Source: a virus
Lineage: Duplodnaviria; Heunggongvirae; Uroviricota; Caudoviricetes
Reading direction: 5' to 3' (one strand)
Virus record (IMG/VR): IMGVR_UViG_2548876869_000004
Location: 1-13,987 of that record
Length of the DNA stretch: 13,987 bases
Shown: piece by piece, positions 249 to 3,379 of the stretch
Numbering within the stretch: position 1 is the stretch's first letter
How the letters are laid out: the number at the start of each line of letters is the position of its first letter
Program-made: the position numbers and the translations under genes
Notes under the pieces: generated by a model
The model's database searches: none
What the model was told of the DNA's origin: nothing
What the model saw: the letters and a program-made list of their open reading frames with translations, nothing else

Positions 249-380
249 ATGTCAGACAAACTCATAACGCCGGCAAAGGTCCTGTGTGTGATTGTCGGTA
301 TTTCATTTTCACTAATGCTGGTTGCTCTTTTTCTGTCCCTCGCCTGGGTGATGTTGTCTTCGTCGGGGCTGCTGGGGTGA
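249..380 (+). CDS. Very short hydrophobic ORF (43 aa), putative membrane peptide
   Basis: ATG at 249 with aagggg 6 nt upstream; product MSDKLITPAKVLCVIVGISFSLMLVALFLSLAWVMLSSSGLLG. Its stop overlaps the next ORF's GTG as GTGA (377-380). Confidence 0.25.
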   Translation: MSDKLITPAKVLCVIVGISFSLMLVALFLSLAWVMLSSSGLLG

Positions 381-499
381 CAGTGACTGATGACATCAGC
401 AGAGCGCTGGCTTTTGCTATTAAGTGGGTGGCTGTTGGTATTGCTGTGTCTCCGATGCTGTATGGGCTGGCAAAACTGGTCATTGCGCTGAAATCGTGA
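377..499 (+). CDS. Very short hydrophobic ORF (about 40 aa), paralogue of the 511-597 ORF
   Basis: GTG at 377 (alternative GTG at 383); product ...TDDISRALAFAIKWVAVGIAVSPMLYGLAKLVIALKS. Both peptide and DNA resemble the next mini-ORF (RALAFAIKWVAVGIAV versus [16 protein letters not shown]). Confidence 0.25.
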   Translation: MTVTDDISRALAFAIKWVAVGIAVSPMLYGLAKLVIALKS

Positions 500-510
500 A
501 CTTTAAAAAG

Positions 511-597
511 ATGAGTGCTGAACTTATTCGGGCAATGGCATTTGCCATTCGTATTGTGGCCATTGCTGTTCTGGTCTGGACAATCCGTTGGTGGTGA
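511..597 (+). CDS. Very short hydrophobic ORF (28 aa), paralogue of the 377-499 ORF
   Basis: ATG at 511; product [28 protein letters not shown]. Stop TGA 595-597 lies 1 nt before the Rz ATG at 599. Confidence 0.2.
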
Positions 598-598
598 T

Positions 599-1066
599 AT
601 GAACCGTGTTCTGTGTGTGGTGATTATTGTCCTGCTGGTAGCCTGTGGTGTGCTTAGTCTGGGGCTGAATCATTACCGTGATAACGCCATTACCTACAAA
701 GCCCAGCGCGACAAAAATGTCAGAGAACTGAAGCTGGCGAACGCGGCAATTACTGACATGCAGATGCGTCAGCGTGATGTTGCTGCGCTCGATGCAAAAT
801 ACACGAAGGAGTTAGCTGATGCGAAAGCTGAAAATGATGCTCTTCGTCGCAAGCTTGATAATGGTGGCAGGGTGCTCGTCAAAGGAAAATGCCCTGTGCC
901 ATCCTCAGCCGAAACCTCCAGCGCCTCCGGCATGGGCAATGATGCCACCGTCGAACTCTCTCCAGTTGCTGGACGAAACGTTCTCGGTATCCGGGACGGA
1001 ATTATCCGCGACCAAACAGCACTGAGAACGCTTCAGGAATACATCAGGACGCAATGCCTTCGATGA
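599..1066 (+). CDS. Rz: Rz i-spanin (inner-membrane spanin subunit)
   Basis: From ATG 599: [83 protein letters not shown]... Long stretches match lambda Rz as I recall it ([58 protein letters not shown]). N-terminal TM helix plus coiled-coil periplasmic domain. The ORF-track start at 515 is an upstream in-frame extension. Confidence 0.9.
819..1025 (+). CDS. Rz1: Rz1 o-spanin (outer-membrane lipoprotein), embedded in Rz in the +1 frame
   Basis: [44 protein letters not shown]... has a lipobox (MVAG|C) and a proline-rich stretch, like lambda Rz1 (MLKLKMML...VVGC...PPPPPAW). It lies wholly inside Rz in another frame, the classic embedded spanin arrangement. Confidence 0.85.
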
Positions 1067-1239
1067 TAGCGATAATTTTACTCATCATCCTTCACATCTG
1101 GCTCTGTAGACAGGGTGGTGATCACTTCTGGAGTGAATCCAGATTTAACATCTCATTGCTGATGCTTGATATTGAGCATCTTGCGCGCGGTAAGGGGCTG
1201 CGTTGAGATAAGAGCCAGTCATCACAAACACCAGGATTT

Positions 1240-1266
1240 AGCCTCGCATTCGCGGGGCTTTTTATT
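1240..1266 (+). terminator. Rho-independent terminator-like hairpin downstream of Rz
   Basis: Stem agcctcgc (1240-1247) pairs with gcggggct (1252-1259), with one G-U wobble, around loop attc; followed by ctttttatt T-tract (to 1266). Confidence 0.45.
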
Positions 1267-1284
1267 GCAACAAAGGTAAAGACG

Positions 1285-1572
1285 ATGGATGAAGAATATC
1301 GTAAAGACCTGCAATTGTGGTTTGGCCTGACGCATGCGTCGTTCTGCGTGATGCCGAGAGTATTCATGGAGGCTATGCCGCAAGAATGGCAAGAGAAGAT
1401 GGCGCAGTTGCTTTTTGAGTATGGCGACACGATCAAAACGGATGTCTGCGGAGTTCACTGCTGTTTCGTTACTGCCAAAGACGGCAACAACCGCTTTATG
1501 AGGATGCCAGAAGATATTCTGAACTATCGTCATCCCCGGCGTGAGTTCATCGAATCATTTCTGAAGAAGTAG
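1285..1572 (+). CDS. Hypothetical small cysteine-containing protein (95 aa)
   Basis: ATG 1285; product MDEEYRKDLQLWFGLTHASFCVMPRVFMEAMPQEWQEKMAQLLFEYGDTIKTDVCGVHCCFVTAKDGNNRFMRMPEDILNYRHPRREFIESFLKK has a natural mixed-charge composition and a C-x2-H-C-C cluster. It occupies the lambda bor position but is not Bor-like and is on the opposite strand to lambda bor. I cannot assign a family from memory. Confidence 0.6.
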   Translation: MDEEYRKDLQLWFGLTHASFCVMPRVFMEAMPQEWQEKMAQLLFEYGDTIKTDVCGVHCCFVTAKDGNNRFMRMPEDILNYRHPRREFIESFLKK

Positions 1573-1629
1573 CCATTACAAAGTCTATCTGCGGGGGGCT
1601 TGATAAAGGTGCTTTCACCTCGCTTAGCA

Positions 1630-1638
1630 TGGTATGTT
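1630..1638 (+). promoter_or_regulatory. Possible extended -10 promoter element (TGgTATGTT)
   Basis: tggtatgtt at 1630-1638 resembles an extended -10 (TGnTATAAT) about 28 nt upstream of the ATG at 1666. No convincing -35. Weak, sequence-only call. Confidence 0.2.
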
Positions 1639-1665
1639 CTGACTACCAACTTTTTGGGAGGACAC

Positions 1666-1890
1666 ATGGAACTGATAAATGGACGGCCAGGCAGAGATTT
1701 TATAGTGGGAACATATACCTACTCAGAAATTAAAGATCTTAACTTCATGGCTAAGGAAGAGAAAAGAGCTCGTGAAGAGCTAAAGCATCGGGGTTACGAA
1801 TTGGCGTATATCAAGGCGGACTCTGAATGTAACGGGATGTTTGTCAGGGCGTACCGGGTCTATACTGACAAAGCGCCATCTAATGTCTAA
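1666..1890 (+). CDS. Hypothetical small protein (74 aa), AT-rich cargo gene
   Basis: ATG 1666 with GGAGG at 1657-1661; product MELINGRPGRDFIVGTYTYSEIKDLNFMAKEEKRAREELKHRGYELAYIKADSECNGMFVRAYRVYTDKAPSNV. Visibly lower GC than the structural genes. The TTG-initiated extension from 1600 in the ORF track is unlikely. Confidence 0.55.
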   Translation: MELINGRPGRDFIVGTYTYSEIKDLNFMAKEEKRAREELKHRGYELAYIKADSECNGMFVRAYRVYTDKAPSNV

Positions 1891-1933
1891 ATATACCTCG
1901 GGCGGTTTTTTACGTTCATTACCGTACGCAATT

Positions 1934-1996
1934 ACAGCAGGCATTCATTGAGTGCCTGTGATAATGATTTATCAACGTGCTTGCAAACGGTATTCT
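1934..1996 (+). promoter_or_regulatory. Putative promoter/operator region upstream of the 134-aa gene
   Basis: Inverted repeat cagcaggca (1934-1942) / tgcctgtg (1951-1958) with one bulge, then ttatca (1969-1974), a 16-nt spacer and tattct (1991-1996) as sigma70-like -35/-10, about 30 nt upstream of the GTG at 2026. Confidence 0.25.
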
Positions 1997-2025
1997 AGAC
2001 CTCCAATTATCCTAAGGAGGTTTTT

Positions 2026-2430
2026 GTGGTTAAAAATTTAGAATACATGAAGGGGATGCTTGAGGTATTTTTGAAAGCGAAAACTCCCTTTATATCTACA
2101 AAAGACTTAGCTAATGCGGGGTACGATATCTGCTCGAATGAAGGGATGTTTCATTATCTACTTCTTATTGAGCAAGGTTATATCAGTAATAAAGATCTAA
2201 TAACGGATGACATAACTAAACTGGGCTACATGCGCCATTGTGGCCATATGCTAGATATGGGTACCGACGTGCGACTATCTGCGCAGGGACAAGAATTCGC
2301 CCAGGCATTAAATGAACCTACGGTTTTTGAGAAATTAAAGTCAATGAGCGATGCCCCTTTGAGTACAATCAAAGATGTTGGGCTGGAGTTAACGAAGGCC
2401 TATTTAAAGAAGAAATTTGGCCTCGAGTAA
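2026..2430 (+). CDS. Hypothetical protein (134 aa), AT-rich cargo gene immediately upstream of cos
   Basis: GTG start 2026 with strong SD AAGGAGG (2014-2020); product MVKNLEYMKGMLEVFLKAKTPFISTKDLANAGYDICSNEGMFHYLLLIEQGYISNKD...KKKFGLE. Clearly AT-rich relative to flanking phage genes. Family unassigned; a small helical or winged-helix-type fold is speculation only. Confidence 0.65.
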   Translation: MVKNLEYMKGMLEVFLKAKTPFISTKDLANAGYDICSNEGMFHYLLLIEQGYISNKDLITDDITKLGYMRHCGHMLDMGTDVRLSAQGQEFAQALNEPTVFEKLKSMSDAPLSTIKDVGLELTKAYLKKKFGLE

Positions 2431-2612
2431 AATTTCTACCCTCACGAGTTAAGTTGTTTTGTGATGGTTATTCGCAATGAATATCTTTAGCCACTGGCAT
2501 TTGCTGGTGGTTTTTTTATGCGCATCCCTCGCGCACCACAAAGGGAGTCTTTCAGTAGTGATTCTGAATATCAGTGTGATAAACGTATTTGACAATCATT
2601 ATCATTTTTGGT

Positions 2613-2683
2613 GGGTCCTTTCCGGCGATCCGACAGGTTACGGGGCGGCGACCTCGCGGTTTTTCACTATTTATGAAAATTTT
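2613..2683 (+). other. cos: cos site: cosQ-proximal region, cosN (12-nt cohesive end GGGCGGCGACCT at 2643-2654) and start of cosB
   Basis: gggtcctttccggcgatccgacaggttacg|gggcggcgacct|cgcggtttttcactatttatgaaaatttt is near-identical to the phage lambda right-end/left-end junction as I recall it (...GGGTCCTTTCCGGTGATCCGACAGGTTACG + GGGCGGCGACCTCGCGGGTTTTCGCTATTTATGAAAATTTT). It sits about 180 bp upstream of Nu1, as in lambda. Confidence 0.85.
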
Positions 2684-2750
2684 TCAGGGAAAATCGTGTC
2701 GGTACTTCTCGAATATAACTTTTTGTTTTTTTTAATATTGCATCCGTAAA

Positions 2751-2805
2751 GGTCCGACATGAAAGTGTCCGAAAATGCCTTTTTCTGGCGTTTTCATGTC
2801 GGGCC
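2751..2805. promoter_or_regulatory. Inverted repeat within cosB, candidate terminase small-subunit binding sites
   Basis: Arm ggtccgacatgaaa (2751-2764) and arm tttcatgtcgggcc (2792-2805) are reverse complements at 13 of 14 positions, separated by 27 bp, just upstream of the Nu1 start at 2831. Lambda R2/R1 are similarly inverted. Confidence 0.4.
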
Positions 2806-2830
2806 TTGTATTTGATAATGGGTTGTTTTC

Positions 2831-3379
2831 ATGAAGGTTAATAAAAAGAGGCTTGCCGAAATTTTCAACGTGGACCCGCGGACGATTGAACGCTGGCAGT
2901 CTCAGGGACTCCCTTGCGCCTCCAAAGGTAGTAAGGGCATTGAATCTGTATTTGATACTGCCATGGTAATTCAGTGGTATGCGCAGAGGGAAACTGATAT
3001 CGAAAACGAAAAGCTCCGCAAAGAACTGGACGATTTGCGTGCGGCAGCGGAGTCAGATTTACAACCCGGCACCATTGACTATGAACGCTACCGGCTCACA
3101 AAAGCGCAGGCAGATGCGCAGGAACTGAAAAATGCCCGTGAAGACGGAGTAGTGCTGGAAACTGAACTGTTTACCTTCATTCTGCAACGTGTGGCACAGG
3201 AGATTTCGGGGATACTTGTGCGTGTGCCGTTGACATTACAGCGTAAATATCCGGACATTTCACCATCACACCTTGATGTGGTGAAAACTGAAATCGCGAA
3301 AGCCTCCAATGTTTCAGCTAAGGCCGGTGAAAACGTGGGCGGGTGGATCGATGATTTCAGACGCGCAGAAGGCAGCTAA
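2831..3379 (+). CDS. nu1: Terminase small subunit (gpNu1)
   Basis: [28 protein letters not shown]...[60 protein letters not shown] closely parallels lambda Nu1 (MEVNKKQLADIF...[48 protein letters not shown]). N-terminal winged HTH. Directly downstream of cos. Confidence 0.95.

What the first reader, a model, noticed from the sequence alone, without database searches (positions are those of the whole stretch)
1285..1572. Cysteine-cluster 95-aa protein in the bor slot, transcribed downstream of a terminator
The gene immediately follows a terminator-like hairpin (1240-1266) and encodes a protein with a C-x2-H-C-C cluster (CGVHCC) plus a further Cys, which could bind a metal. It replaces lambda bor and is on the opposite strand to it. 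I do not recognise the family. Its GC content looks intermediate, so it may be an older resident than the downstream AT-rich pair.
Basis: partly seen in the sequence, partly recalled or inferred. Interest (0 to 1): 0.45.

Follow-up and report, generated by a model that had tools for sequence, protein, structure and literature searches.

The report
Uncharacterised phage accessory protein, not metal-binding
The 95-residue gene is real and belongs to a very large phage protein family of unknown function and unmatched predicted fold, but the cysteine cluster that drew attention is a private quirk of this one allele, not a metal site.

Summary
ORF 1285-1572 (+) is a genuine gene, identical to RefSeq WP_000343118.1 in a lambdoid prophage of E. 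coli O104:H4. It sits in the lambda bor slot, 18 nt after a rho-independent-type hairpin (1240-1259, T tract to 1266).

Across 318 aligned domain copies, position 59 is Gly or Ser and is Cys in only 3. Here Cys59 comes from a single AGC>TGC change at 1459. Positions 21, 55, 58 and 60 also vary freely.

What is conserved is L9, W12, F13, G14, L15, P24, R25, M28, M31, P32, W35, Q36, L42, L43, V62, P75 and N80-Y-R-H-P84.

The family is large: 1430 clusters at 50% identity. It matches phrog_3527, 33008 and 10794 but no Pfam, NCBIfam or PADLOC model. A confident AlphaFold model (pLDDT 87) has no PDB fold match. The domain occurs alone or at the C-terminus of variable proteins, some with zinc ribbons and rarely a Lar domain.

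The hairpin is an invariant mosaic joint, and the cargo after it differs between phages. I infer expression by Q-antiterminated late read-through. The protein most likely acts in lytic growth as a binding module, but its function remains unknown. Interest is modest.

The parts
1240..1266 (+). Rho-independent-terminator-like hairpin (GCCTCGC-ATTC-GCGGGGC plus T tract). It also serves as the invariant mosaic joint between the lysis module and a variable cargo slot.
   Evidence: The consensus scan and fold are. The hairpin is annotated as a terminator in epsilon34. It is invariant in six contexts whose left or right flanks differ. Similarity of 46 phage records to the window ends at 1263-1268. 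The GN04979 prophage shares only 1241-1609 with the window.
1273..1276 (+). Shine-Dalgarno-like AAGG, 8 nt upstream of the ATG. Only 18 nt separate the T tract from the start codon, which leaves no room for a promoter.
   Evidence: Read directly from the sequence. The promoter scan finds no site between 1173 and 1285.
1285..1572 (+). CDS of 95 aa. It is a stand-alone copy of a widespread uncharacterised phage domain (phrog_3527/33008/10794) and is identical to WP_000343118.1.
   Evidence: Purifying selection in this frame is shown. The AlphaFold model has pLDDT 87.1.
1459..1461 (+). Codon 59, TGC (Cys). It is AGC (Ser) in HF4s, ST131 and GN04979 copies. This private substitution creates the 'CC' doublet.
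   Evidence: Cys occurs at this column in 3 of 318 domain copies.
1241..1609 (+). Extent of the mobile single-gene module (hairpin, RBS, ORF95 and 37 nt of 3' flank). It is shared with otherwise different prophages.
   Evidence: Local blastn: HF4s and the ST131 prophage match 1031-1606, and GN04979 matches 1241-1609. None of them carries the window's downstream ORFs.

Best explanation
ORF 1285-1572 is a genuine protein-coding accessory gene of a lambdoid prophage. It encodes a stand-alone copy of an approximately 85-residue, phage-borne domain that has been catalogued (phrog_3527, 33008, 10794) but never characterised.

Shown:
- The family is very large and is found in phages and prophages of enterobacteria, Vibrio, Pseudomonas, Stenotrophomonas, Acinetobacter and Caulobacter.
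- Its conserved core is aromatic/hydrophobic plus R25, Q36 and the N80-Y-R-H-P84 motif.
- The Cys/His cluster is incidental.
- The predicted fold is compact, mostly helical, and has no match among solved structures.
- The gene is a self-contained mosaic module with no conserved partner gene.
- In enterobacterial temperate phages it sits right after the spanin genes and before the terminase genes.

Inferred:
- The gene has an RBS but no promoter of its own and starts 18 nt after a terminator. It is therefore transcribed only when Q-modified RNA polymerase from the late promoter reads through that terminator, that is, during lytic growth and not in the lysogen.
- The protein most likely works without catalysis, as a binding module for a host or nucleic-acid target, serving host take-over, counter-defence or DNA-metabolism support.
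- The reasons are its small size, the conserved residues that look like a fold core plus one polar patch, its recurrence as the C-terminal module behind swappable N-terminal parts (zinc ribbons, twice a Lar restriction-alleviation domain), and its placement elsewhere among early replication and recombination genes.
For: Coding:
- 41 close homologues, 1430 clusters at 50% identity and 1715 clusters at 90% identity.
- Third-position-biased substitutions, 8/4/20 by codon position, with 16 synonymous against 9 non-synonymous codons.
- PGAP calls the same CDS.

Family:
- phrog_3527 at E = 2.5e-56.
- No match in Pfam, NCBIfam or PADLOC.

Conservation.

Fold:
- pLDDT 87.1 and pTM 0.70.
- Foldseek against the PDB gives best E = 2.3 and TM <= 0.19.
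- BFVD matches are family members only, with TM 0.79 to Dolphis gp64.

Architectures:
- About half of the top 150 representatives are 140 aa or longer, with the domain at the C-terminus.
- A Lar domain (PF14354) scores above Pfam's cut-off in P0091 and P0097.
- Zinc-ribbon-like N-termini occur in P0051, P0065, P0068, P0103 and P0174.
- P0047 is a tandem duplication.

Context:
- An Rz homologue lies upstream in 35 of 55 IMG/VR loci, with a large terminase downstream in 19.
- The same slot is used in the ST131, GN04979 and 2017C-4173W12 prophages.
- Early or replication contexts occur elsewhere.
- There is no recurrent partner gene.

Terminator and absence of a promoter.

Q-dependent read-through of terminators by the lambda late transcript is established lambda biology (my own knowledge, not tested here).
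Against: - There is no experimental or homology-based functional anchor. Every named relative is 'hypothetical protein', and literature searches on accessions and PHROG ids found nothing.
- The Lar fusion is rare: 2 clusters, and a search seeded with one of them found no further full-length fusions. It is only a hint.
- The conserved N-Y-R-H motif plus R25 could equally be a catalytic or phosphate-binding site, so 'non-enzymatic' is a guess.
- Promoter absence rests on a sigma-70 consensus scan only.
- The AlphaFold-database fold library was unavailable.
Confidence: 0.5

Rival explanations
1. Metal-binding (zinc-ribbon-like) protein that uses the C55-x2-H58-C59-C60 cluster plus C21.
For: The residues are present in this allele.
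Against: None of the five positions is conserved. Cys frequencies are 57, 43, 5, 3 and 69 of 318 at positions 21, 55, 58, 59 and 60, and His at position 58 occurs in 59 of 318. The nearest relatives have Ser59. Residues 52-60 form the most variable loop of the alignment. The model has no zinc-knuckle hairpins and no fold match to zinc ribbons.
Confidence: 0.03
2. A bor-like 'moron': a gene expressed from the repressed prophage that gives the lysogen a fitness or virulence trait.
For: It occupies the same hypervariable slot as lambda bor. It is present or absent among close relatives: PhiR12_2_star has no cargo there, and only 72 of 5426 E. coli genomes carry it. Its GC content is slightly lower than that of its flanks.
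Against: No promoter-like site lies between the terminator and the ATG, an 18-nt gap. It has the same orientation as the late operon, and no terminator follows it directly. It has no signal peptide or lipobox and no Bor Pfam match. Homologues occur in early or replication gene clusters of phages such as Sasha, Dolphis and Psp6. By my own knowledge, the Sasha/9NA-like phages are virulent, which would require a lytic-cycle role.
Confidence: 0.1
3. A DNA-metabolism helper (replication, recombination or packaging accessory) that binds DNA or a DNA enzyme, rather than a counter-defence factor.
For: The gene overlaps or abuts a helicase (L017) and DNA polymerase I (QDWS359). It lies near a primase (Psp6 and Dolphis), a DnaQ-like exonuclease and replication genes (L092-L095) and YqaJ. 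It sits directly upstream of the small terminase in Vibrio phages. N-terminal zinc ribbons occur in several fusions.
Against: The neighbours differ from phage to phage and none recurs. The protein is near neutral, with 15 acidic and 13 basic residues counted from the sequence. It has no recognisable DNA-binding fold. Its position in enteric phages, after the lysis genes, is not a replication context.
Confidence: 0.25
4. The ORF is spurious, or the real gene is one of the overlapping minus-strand ORFs (1122-1436, 1222-1533).
For: Both minus-strand ORFs are open in the window and largely open in the 95% identical HF4s.
Against: In divergent homologues the plus frame has only its terminal stop, whereas every minus frame has 1-8 stops. 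More than 1400 protein clusters conserve the plus-frame product. The codon-position bias fits the plus frame.
Confidence: 0.01

Closest known systems
PHROG families phrog_3527, phrog_33008 and phrog_10794 (all 'unknown function')
   Same: There are significant full-domain HMM matches (E = 2.5e-56, 1.6e-15 and 5e-07). All 79 long relatives tested hit the same three families.
   Different: The window protein covers only the C-terminal approximately 90 positions of profiles that are 178-233 positions long. It is therefore the bare domain without the variable N-terminal part. The families carry no functional annotation, so membership explains nothing mechanistically.
Lambda bor and other cargo of the Rz-to-cos slot of lambdoid phages (e.g. 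epsilon34 gp68 GIY-YIG nuclease)
   Same: It occupies the same hypervariable position, directly after the spanin genes and the conserved terminator hairpin.
   Different: There is no sequence or fold relation. bor is on the opposite strand and encodes a lipoprotein expressed in the lysogen. ORF95 is co-directional with the late operon, has no promoter of its own and has no signal sequence.
Lar (Rac prophage restriction-alleviation protein; Pfam PF14354) fusion proteins
   Same: Two family members (P0091, P0097) carry a Lar domain N-terminal to this domain, scoring above Pfam's cut-off.
   Different: The window protein has no Lar domain. The fusion is rare. Nothing shows that the C-terminal domain itself acts on restriction systems.
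Zinc-ribbon / Cys-His metal-binding small phage proteins
   Same: Small size and, in this allele only, four Cys and one His.
   Different: The ligand set is not conserved and the predicted fold is not a zinc ribbon.

Membership tests
phrog_3527 superfamily (uncharacterised phage domain) | Significant profile match over the conserved domain | tested here: met
   E = 2.5e-56, residues 1-95 against profile positions 139-230 of 233. The reciprocal profile search finds 1430 clusters.
phrog_3527 superfamily (uncharacterised phage domain) | Family signature residues (W12-F13-G-L15, P24-R25, M31-P32, W35-Q36, N80-Y-R-H-P84) | tested here: met
   All are present in the window protein and occur in more than 85% of the 318 aligned copies, except H83 at 78%.
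Zinc-ribbon / Cys-His metal-binding protein | A conserved set of three or four Cys/His ligands | tested here: not met
   Cys at positions 21, 55, 59 and 60 occurs in 57, 43, 3 and 69 of 318 copies. His58 occurs in 59 of 318.
Zinc-ribbon / Cys-His metal-binding protein | Zinc-knuckle beta-hairpin fold | tested here: not met
   The AlphaFold model (pLDDT 87) has six short helices and one two-residue hairpin. No PDB fold match was found.
Zinc-ribbon / Cys-His metal-binding protein | Bound metal in the purified protein | not testable with these tools
   This needs ICP-MS or a PAR assay.
Moron (independently transcribed prophage cargo gene) | Own promoter upstream of the gene | tested here: not met
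   Only 18 nt separate the terminator T tract from the ATG, and no sigma-70-like site lies there. This is a consensus scan only, so non-canonical promoters are not excluded.
Moron (independently transcribed prophage cargo gene) | Own terminator directly downstream | tested here: not met
   The next plus-strand terminator-like site is at 2489-2512, after two more ORFs.
Moron (independently transcribed prophage cargo gene) | Present or absent between otherwise related phages, with deviating base composition | tested here: met
   It is absent from PhiR12_2_star, mEp460 and epsilon34 at the same joint. GC is 0.479 against 0.52 in the flanks.
Moron (independently transcribed prophage cargo gene) | Expression in the repressed lysogen | not testable with these tools
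   This needs a transcriptome or Ribo-seq of the lysogen.
Bor-like outer-membrane lipoprotein | Bor family profile match, signal peptide and lipobox | tested here: not met
   No Pfam hit at E <= 1. The N-terminus MDEEYRKDL is acidic and has no lipobox.
Lar restriction-alleviation protein (PF14354) | Lar zinc-ribbon domain | tested here: not met
   No Pfam hit in the window protein. The domain is present only in the relatives P0091 and P0097.
cos-proximal HNH endonuclease | HNH motif or profile match | tested here: not met
   No Pfam, NCBIfam or PHROG match to HNH families.

The most novel reading that the evidence does not exclude
The conserved domain (W-F-G-L ... P-R ... M-P-x-x-W-Q ... N-Y-R-H-P) is a new protein fold. 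Phages of many Proteobacteria would deploy it, alone or attached to interchangeable zinc-ribbon or Lar-type heads, to neutralise a host factor such as a restriction or other defence component. That would make it an unrecognised, very widespread anti-defence or host-take-over module.
Probability: 0.2. Interest if true: 0.6.

Novelty: new member of a known kind. Interest (0 to 1): 0.25.

Why it matters
As a single gene it is ordinary: one more hypothetical protein in a well-known variable slot of lambdoid phages, and the feature that made it look special is an allele-specific accident.

The by-product is more useful. About 1400 sequence clusters share an approximately 85-residue domain. That domain has a confident predicted structure, no Pfam model and no solved structural relative. 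It is a clean candidate for a new domain definition and for a functional screen.

The invariant terminator hairpin, with different sequence on either side in different phages, also shows concretely how cargo is swapped at this position.

Tried and rejected
- Pfam, NCBIfam and PADLOC scans of the protein gave nothing.
- Profile searches of PDB sequences with two alignments gave only chance hits at E >= 0.12.
- The first AlphaFold run, with a shallow 25-sequence alignment, gave pLDDT 49.7 and was discarded. A 67-sequence alignment fixed this.
- N-terminal fusion partners were scanned in Pfam and PHROGs. Most are unknown. Only Lar (2 proteins), NlpC/P60 (1 protein), weak zinc ribbons and an HExxH motif in P0082 and P0146 appeared. 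A PDB sequence search with P0146 was uninformative.
- A search seeded with a Lar fusion found no further full-length fusions.
- Neighbourhood clustering over 15 loci, and then 55 loci, found no recurrent partner apart from the lysis and terminase genes of the enteric subgroup.
- An Rfam scan of 900-2900 found nothing credible.
- Literature searches on accessions, locus tags and the PHROG id returned zero papers.
- I first wondered whether the 95-aa ORF was a truncated remnant of a ~230-aa protein, because it matches only the C-terminal part of the PHROG profiles. I rejected this: stand-alone 91-120-aa forms are the commonest in the family and start at the same position.

Full report
**Where the window comes from**

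Window 1060-2830 is 100% identical to a lambdoid prophage of E. coli O104:H4 (for example 2011C-3493, NC_018658.1) and about 25 other complete genomes. The layout is as follows.
- Small membrane-like ORFs at the left end.
- Rz at 599-1066 (Pfam Phage_lysis E = 1e-31; phrog_13) and Rz1 at 819-1025.
- A 50-aa ORF at 1054-1206.
- The hairpin, then ORF95 at 1285-1572.
- Two further ORFs, at 1666-1890 and 2026-2430.
- The lambda-type cos sequence GGGCGGCGACCT at about 2643-2654.
- Nu1 at 2831-3379, and terminase A from 3309.

In lambda itself, the gene directly after Rz/Rz1 is bor, on the minus strand. 'The bor slot, opposite strand' is therefore correct.

**Checking the observation**

- The ORF, its 95-aa product, the CGVHCC string (residues 55-60) and Cys21 are all as described.
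- The hairpin is an 8-pair stem (6 G-C) at 1240-1259 with a 4-nt loop and a TTTTATT tail ending at 1266. It folds at -15.8 kcal/mol, z = -2.05 against shuffles.
- The identical hairpin is annotated as a rho-independent terminator in phage epsilon34.
- GC is 0.479 for ORF95, 0.436 and 0.400 for the two downstream ORFs, and 0.52 for Rz and the terminase genes.
- RefSeq/PGAP annotates exactly this CDS as hypothetical protein WP_000343118.1.

**Is it a gene, and on which strand?**

Yes, on the plus strand.
- The protein has 41 close database relatives.
- A profile of the family finds 1430 clusters (50% identity level) at E <= 0.001 and 423 at E <= 1e-10 among 1.84 billion representatives. It finds 1715 clusters at the 90% level.
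- Against an 88.9% identical E. coli copy, the 32 substitutions fall 8/4/20 on codon positions 1/2/3, with 16 synonymous and 9 non-synonymous codons.
- In seven divergent homologous loci the plus frame has only its terminal stop, whereas each minus frame has 1-8 stops.
- One E. coli copy (2017C-4173W12) is frameshifted.

**The cysteine cluster**

- In the 28-sequence alignment the consensus is VCGVHSC.
- The 97% identical cluster representative reads CEVHSF. The 94% identical HF4s protein reads CGVHSC.
- Cys59 of the window is a single AGC>TGC change at 1459.
- Over 318 domain copies aligned to a family HMM, the counts are:
  - position 59: G 111, S 95, T 26, with Cys in only 3. Two of those three are the window protein itself and its exact database copy.
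  - position 21: L 208, C 57.
  - position 55: D 91, C 43.
  - position 58: I 63, H 59.
  - position 60: T 119, C 69.
- Residues 52-60 form the most variable stretch of the alignment.
- The conserved residues are L9, W12, F13, G14, L15, P24, R25, M28, M31, P32, W35, Q36, M39, L42, L43, V62, P75 and N80-Y81-R82-H83-P84.
- There is no conserved ligand set for a metal.

**What the family is**

- There is no Pfam, NCBIfam or PADLOC match.
- The protein matches three PHROG families of unknown function: phrog_3527 (E = 2.5e-56), phrog_33008 and phrog_10794. In each case it matches only the C-terminal approximately 90 positions of a 178-233-position profile.
- That raised the possibility of a truncated remnant. 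However, stand-alone proteins of 91-120 aa starting at the same position are the commonest form. Examples are Salmonella phage Sasha gp32, Klebsiella phage Carvaje, Vibrio phage Seahorse and most of the top 120 hits.
- About half of the 150 best representatives are 140 aa or longer, up to 487 aa, with the domain at the C-terminus behind variable N-terminal regions.
- Those N-terminal regions are mostly unrecognisable. Exceptions are:
  - a Lar restriction-alleviation zinc ribbon, above Pfam's cut-off, in P0091 and P0097;
  - weaker zinc-ribbon signals or CxxC pairs in about nine others;
  - an HExxH motif in P0082 and P0146;
  - an NlpC/P60 fragment in P0082;
  - a tandem duplication of the domain in P0047.
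- A search seeded with a Lar fusion found no further full-length fusions, so that link is rare.
- All source names are 'hypothetical protein'.

**Structure**

- With 25 sequences AlphaFold gave a poor model (pLDDT 49.7).
- With 67 diverse sequences it gave a confident one: pLDDT 87.1, pTM 0.70, and five concordant models.
- The secondary structure is helices at 9-13, 25-30, 33-49, 52-55, 76-79 and 86-92, plus a short hairpin around 63-71.
- Foldseek against the PDB gave nothing better than E = 2.3 and TM 0.19.
- In BFVD the only significant matches are other family members. They are the 243- and 344-residue entries that I take, from their lengths, to be Dolphis gp64 and Psp6 gp31, plus Caulobacter phages CcrPW and CcrSwift. 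TM reaches 0.79.
- The AlphaFold-database library was not available.
- The model is not a zinc ribbon, and as far as could be tested it has no solved structural relative.

**Genomic context and the hairpin**

- Only 72 of 5426 complete E. coli genomes carry the gene.
- In three independent E. coli prophages it lies between the lysis genes and the terminase genes, co-directional with them. The three are P22-like in ST131, a different lysis cassette in GN04979, and a third type in 2017C-4173W12.
- Among 55 IMG/VR loci an Rz homologue lies about 220 nt upstream in 35, and a large terminase downstream in 19.
- More distant members (54-57% identity) sit in the early region, next to repressor, replication and exonuclease genes.
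- In other phages the gene abuts a helicase, DNA polymerase I, a primase or the small terminase.
- No partner gene recurs.
- The hairpin GCCTCGC-ATTN-GCGGGGC-TTTTT is invariant in six contexts. The sequence to its left differs in GN04979. The sequence to its right differs in epsilon34 (a GIY-YIG nuclease follows) and in mEp460.
- Forty-six phage records share window 1100 to about 1268 and then diverge.
- GN04979 shares only 1241-1609. HF4s and the ST131 prophage share 1031-1606.
- The closest sequenced phage, PhiR12_2_star, has no cargo there.
- The hairpin is thus both a terminator-like element and the recombination joint of a hypervariable cargo slot. ORF95 is a single-gene module that moves independently of the two AT-richer genes downstream.

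**How it most likely works**

- Shown: the gene has an RBS (AAGG, 8 nt upstream), only 18 nt between the T tract and the ATG, and no promoter-like site there.
- Inferred from established lambda biology: transcription must come through the hairpin. Only Q-modified polymerase from the late promoter does that efficiently, so the protein would be made late in lytic growth and not in the lysogen.
- Several relatives lie in early or replication gene clusters. By my own knowledge, the Sasha/9NA-like phages are virulent. Both points argue for a lytic-cycle role and against a bor-like lysogen trait.
- The molecular activity is unknown. I favour a non-catalytic binding module aimed at a host factor or at nucleic acid, serving counter-defence, host take-over or DNA-metabolism support. 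The reasons are:
  - the small size;
  - conservation dominated by core aromatics with one polar patch (R25, Q36, N80-Y-R-H);
  - use as the constant C-terminal module behind swappable heads that include zinc ribbons and Lar;
  - free-standing mobility without a partner gene.
- This last step is a weakly supported inference. A small enzyme or a phosphate- or nucleotide-binding site cannot be excluded.

**Comparison with known things, and verdict**

- It is a member of the uncharacterised phrog_3527 group (membership tested and met).
- It is not a zinc-ribbon or metal-cluster protein, not Bor-like, not Lar and not an HNH endonuclease (each tested and not met).
- It meets only the presence/absence criterion of a classical moron, lacking its own promoter and its own terminator.
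- The finding as written, a putative metal-binding protein, is not supported.
- The gene itself is an ordinary, already annotated hypothetical protein.
- The residual interest is that its family is very large, has no domain model and has a confidently predicted fold with no solved relative.

Noticed in passing
window 1666-1890 (+): A 74-aa ORF matches phrog_6100 over its full length (E = 1.1e-55, profile positions 1-74 of 74). It is not annotated in the RefSeq record of O104:H4 2011C-3493, where only 1285-1572 and 2026-2430 are called in this stretch. It is probably a missed gene.
   Followed up: partly
window 2026-2430 (+): A 134-aa ORF with a GTG start and GC 0.40 matches phrog_585 (unknown function, E = 3e-31). 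It has no Pfam, NCBIfam or PADLOC hit. A terminator-like hairpin at 2489-2512 follows it. It co-occurs with ORF95 only in the 99-100% identical loci.
   Followed up: partly
window 1054-1206 (+): A 50-aa ORF overlaps the Rz stop codon and has a hydrophobic N-terminus ([18 protein letters not shown]). Its DNA is at least 95% conserved in 46 phage records, both lambda-like and P22-like, where it is annotated as Sf6 gene 65 / epsilon34 gp67, 'hypothetical'.
   Followed up: partly
window 249-597 (+): Three tiny, strongly hydrophobic ORFs lie between the endolysin and Rz. RefSeq annotates them as 43-, 51- and 28-aa hypothetical proteins. This is an unusual filling of a lambdoid lysis cassette.
   Followed up: no
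window 2643-2654: A lambda-type cohesive-end sequence, GGGCGGCGACCT, lies about 180 nt upstream of Nu1. ORF95 therefore lies about 1.07 kb from the right end of the packaged chromosome (lambda similarity at 2575-2642).
   Followed up: no
P0047 (198 aa), P0082 and P0146, P0091 and P0097: Unusual architectures occur in the family. P0047 has two tandem copies of the domain. P0082 and P0146 have an N-terminal region with an HEFGH (HExxH) metalloprotease-like motif, and P0082 also has an NlpC/P60 fragment. P0091 and P0097 have N-terminal Lar (PF14354) domains.
   Followed up: partly
L015 2890-5291: In one metagenomic prophage the family member lies just downstream of a diversity-generating-retroelement-like pair (bAvd plus a reverse transcriptase) and near YqaJ and an integrase.
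   Followed up: no
L012 2501-2787 (E. coli 2017C-4173W12): This 82% identical copy of the gene is frameshifted after residue 46 and is annotated as a pseudogene. It is the only disrupted copy seen among the 72 E. coli genomes.
   Followed up: yes
P0183, P0155, P0141, P0174 (Pseudomonas aeruginosa prophage proteins): These long relatives are built of modules joined by repeated 'AALAQPSP'-type linkers. Individual N-terminal modules recur separately in many Pseudomonas phages, including JBD24, D3 orf44, TC7 and MPK9. This is an intragenic mosaic.
   Followed up: partly
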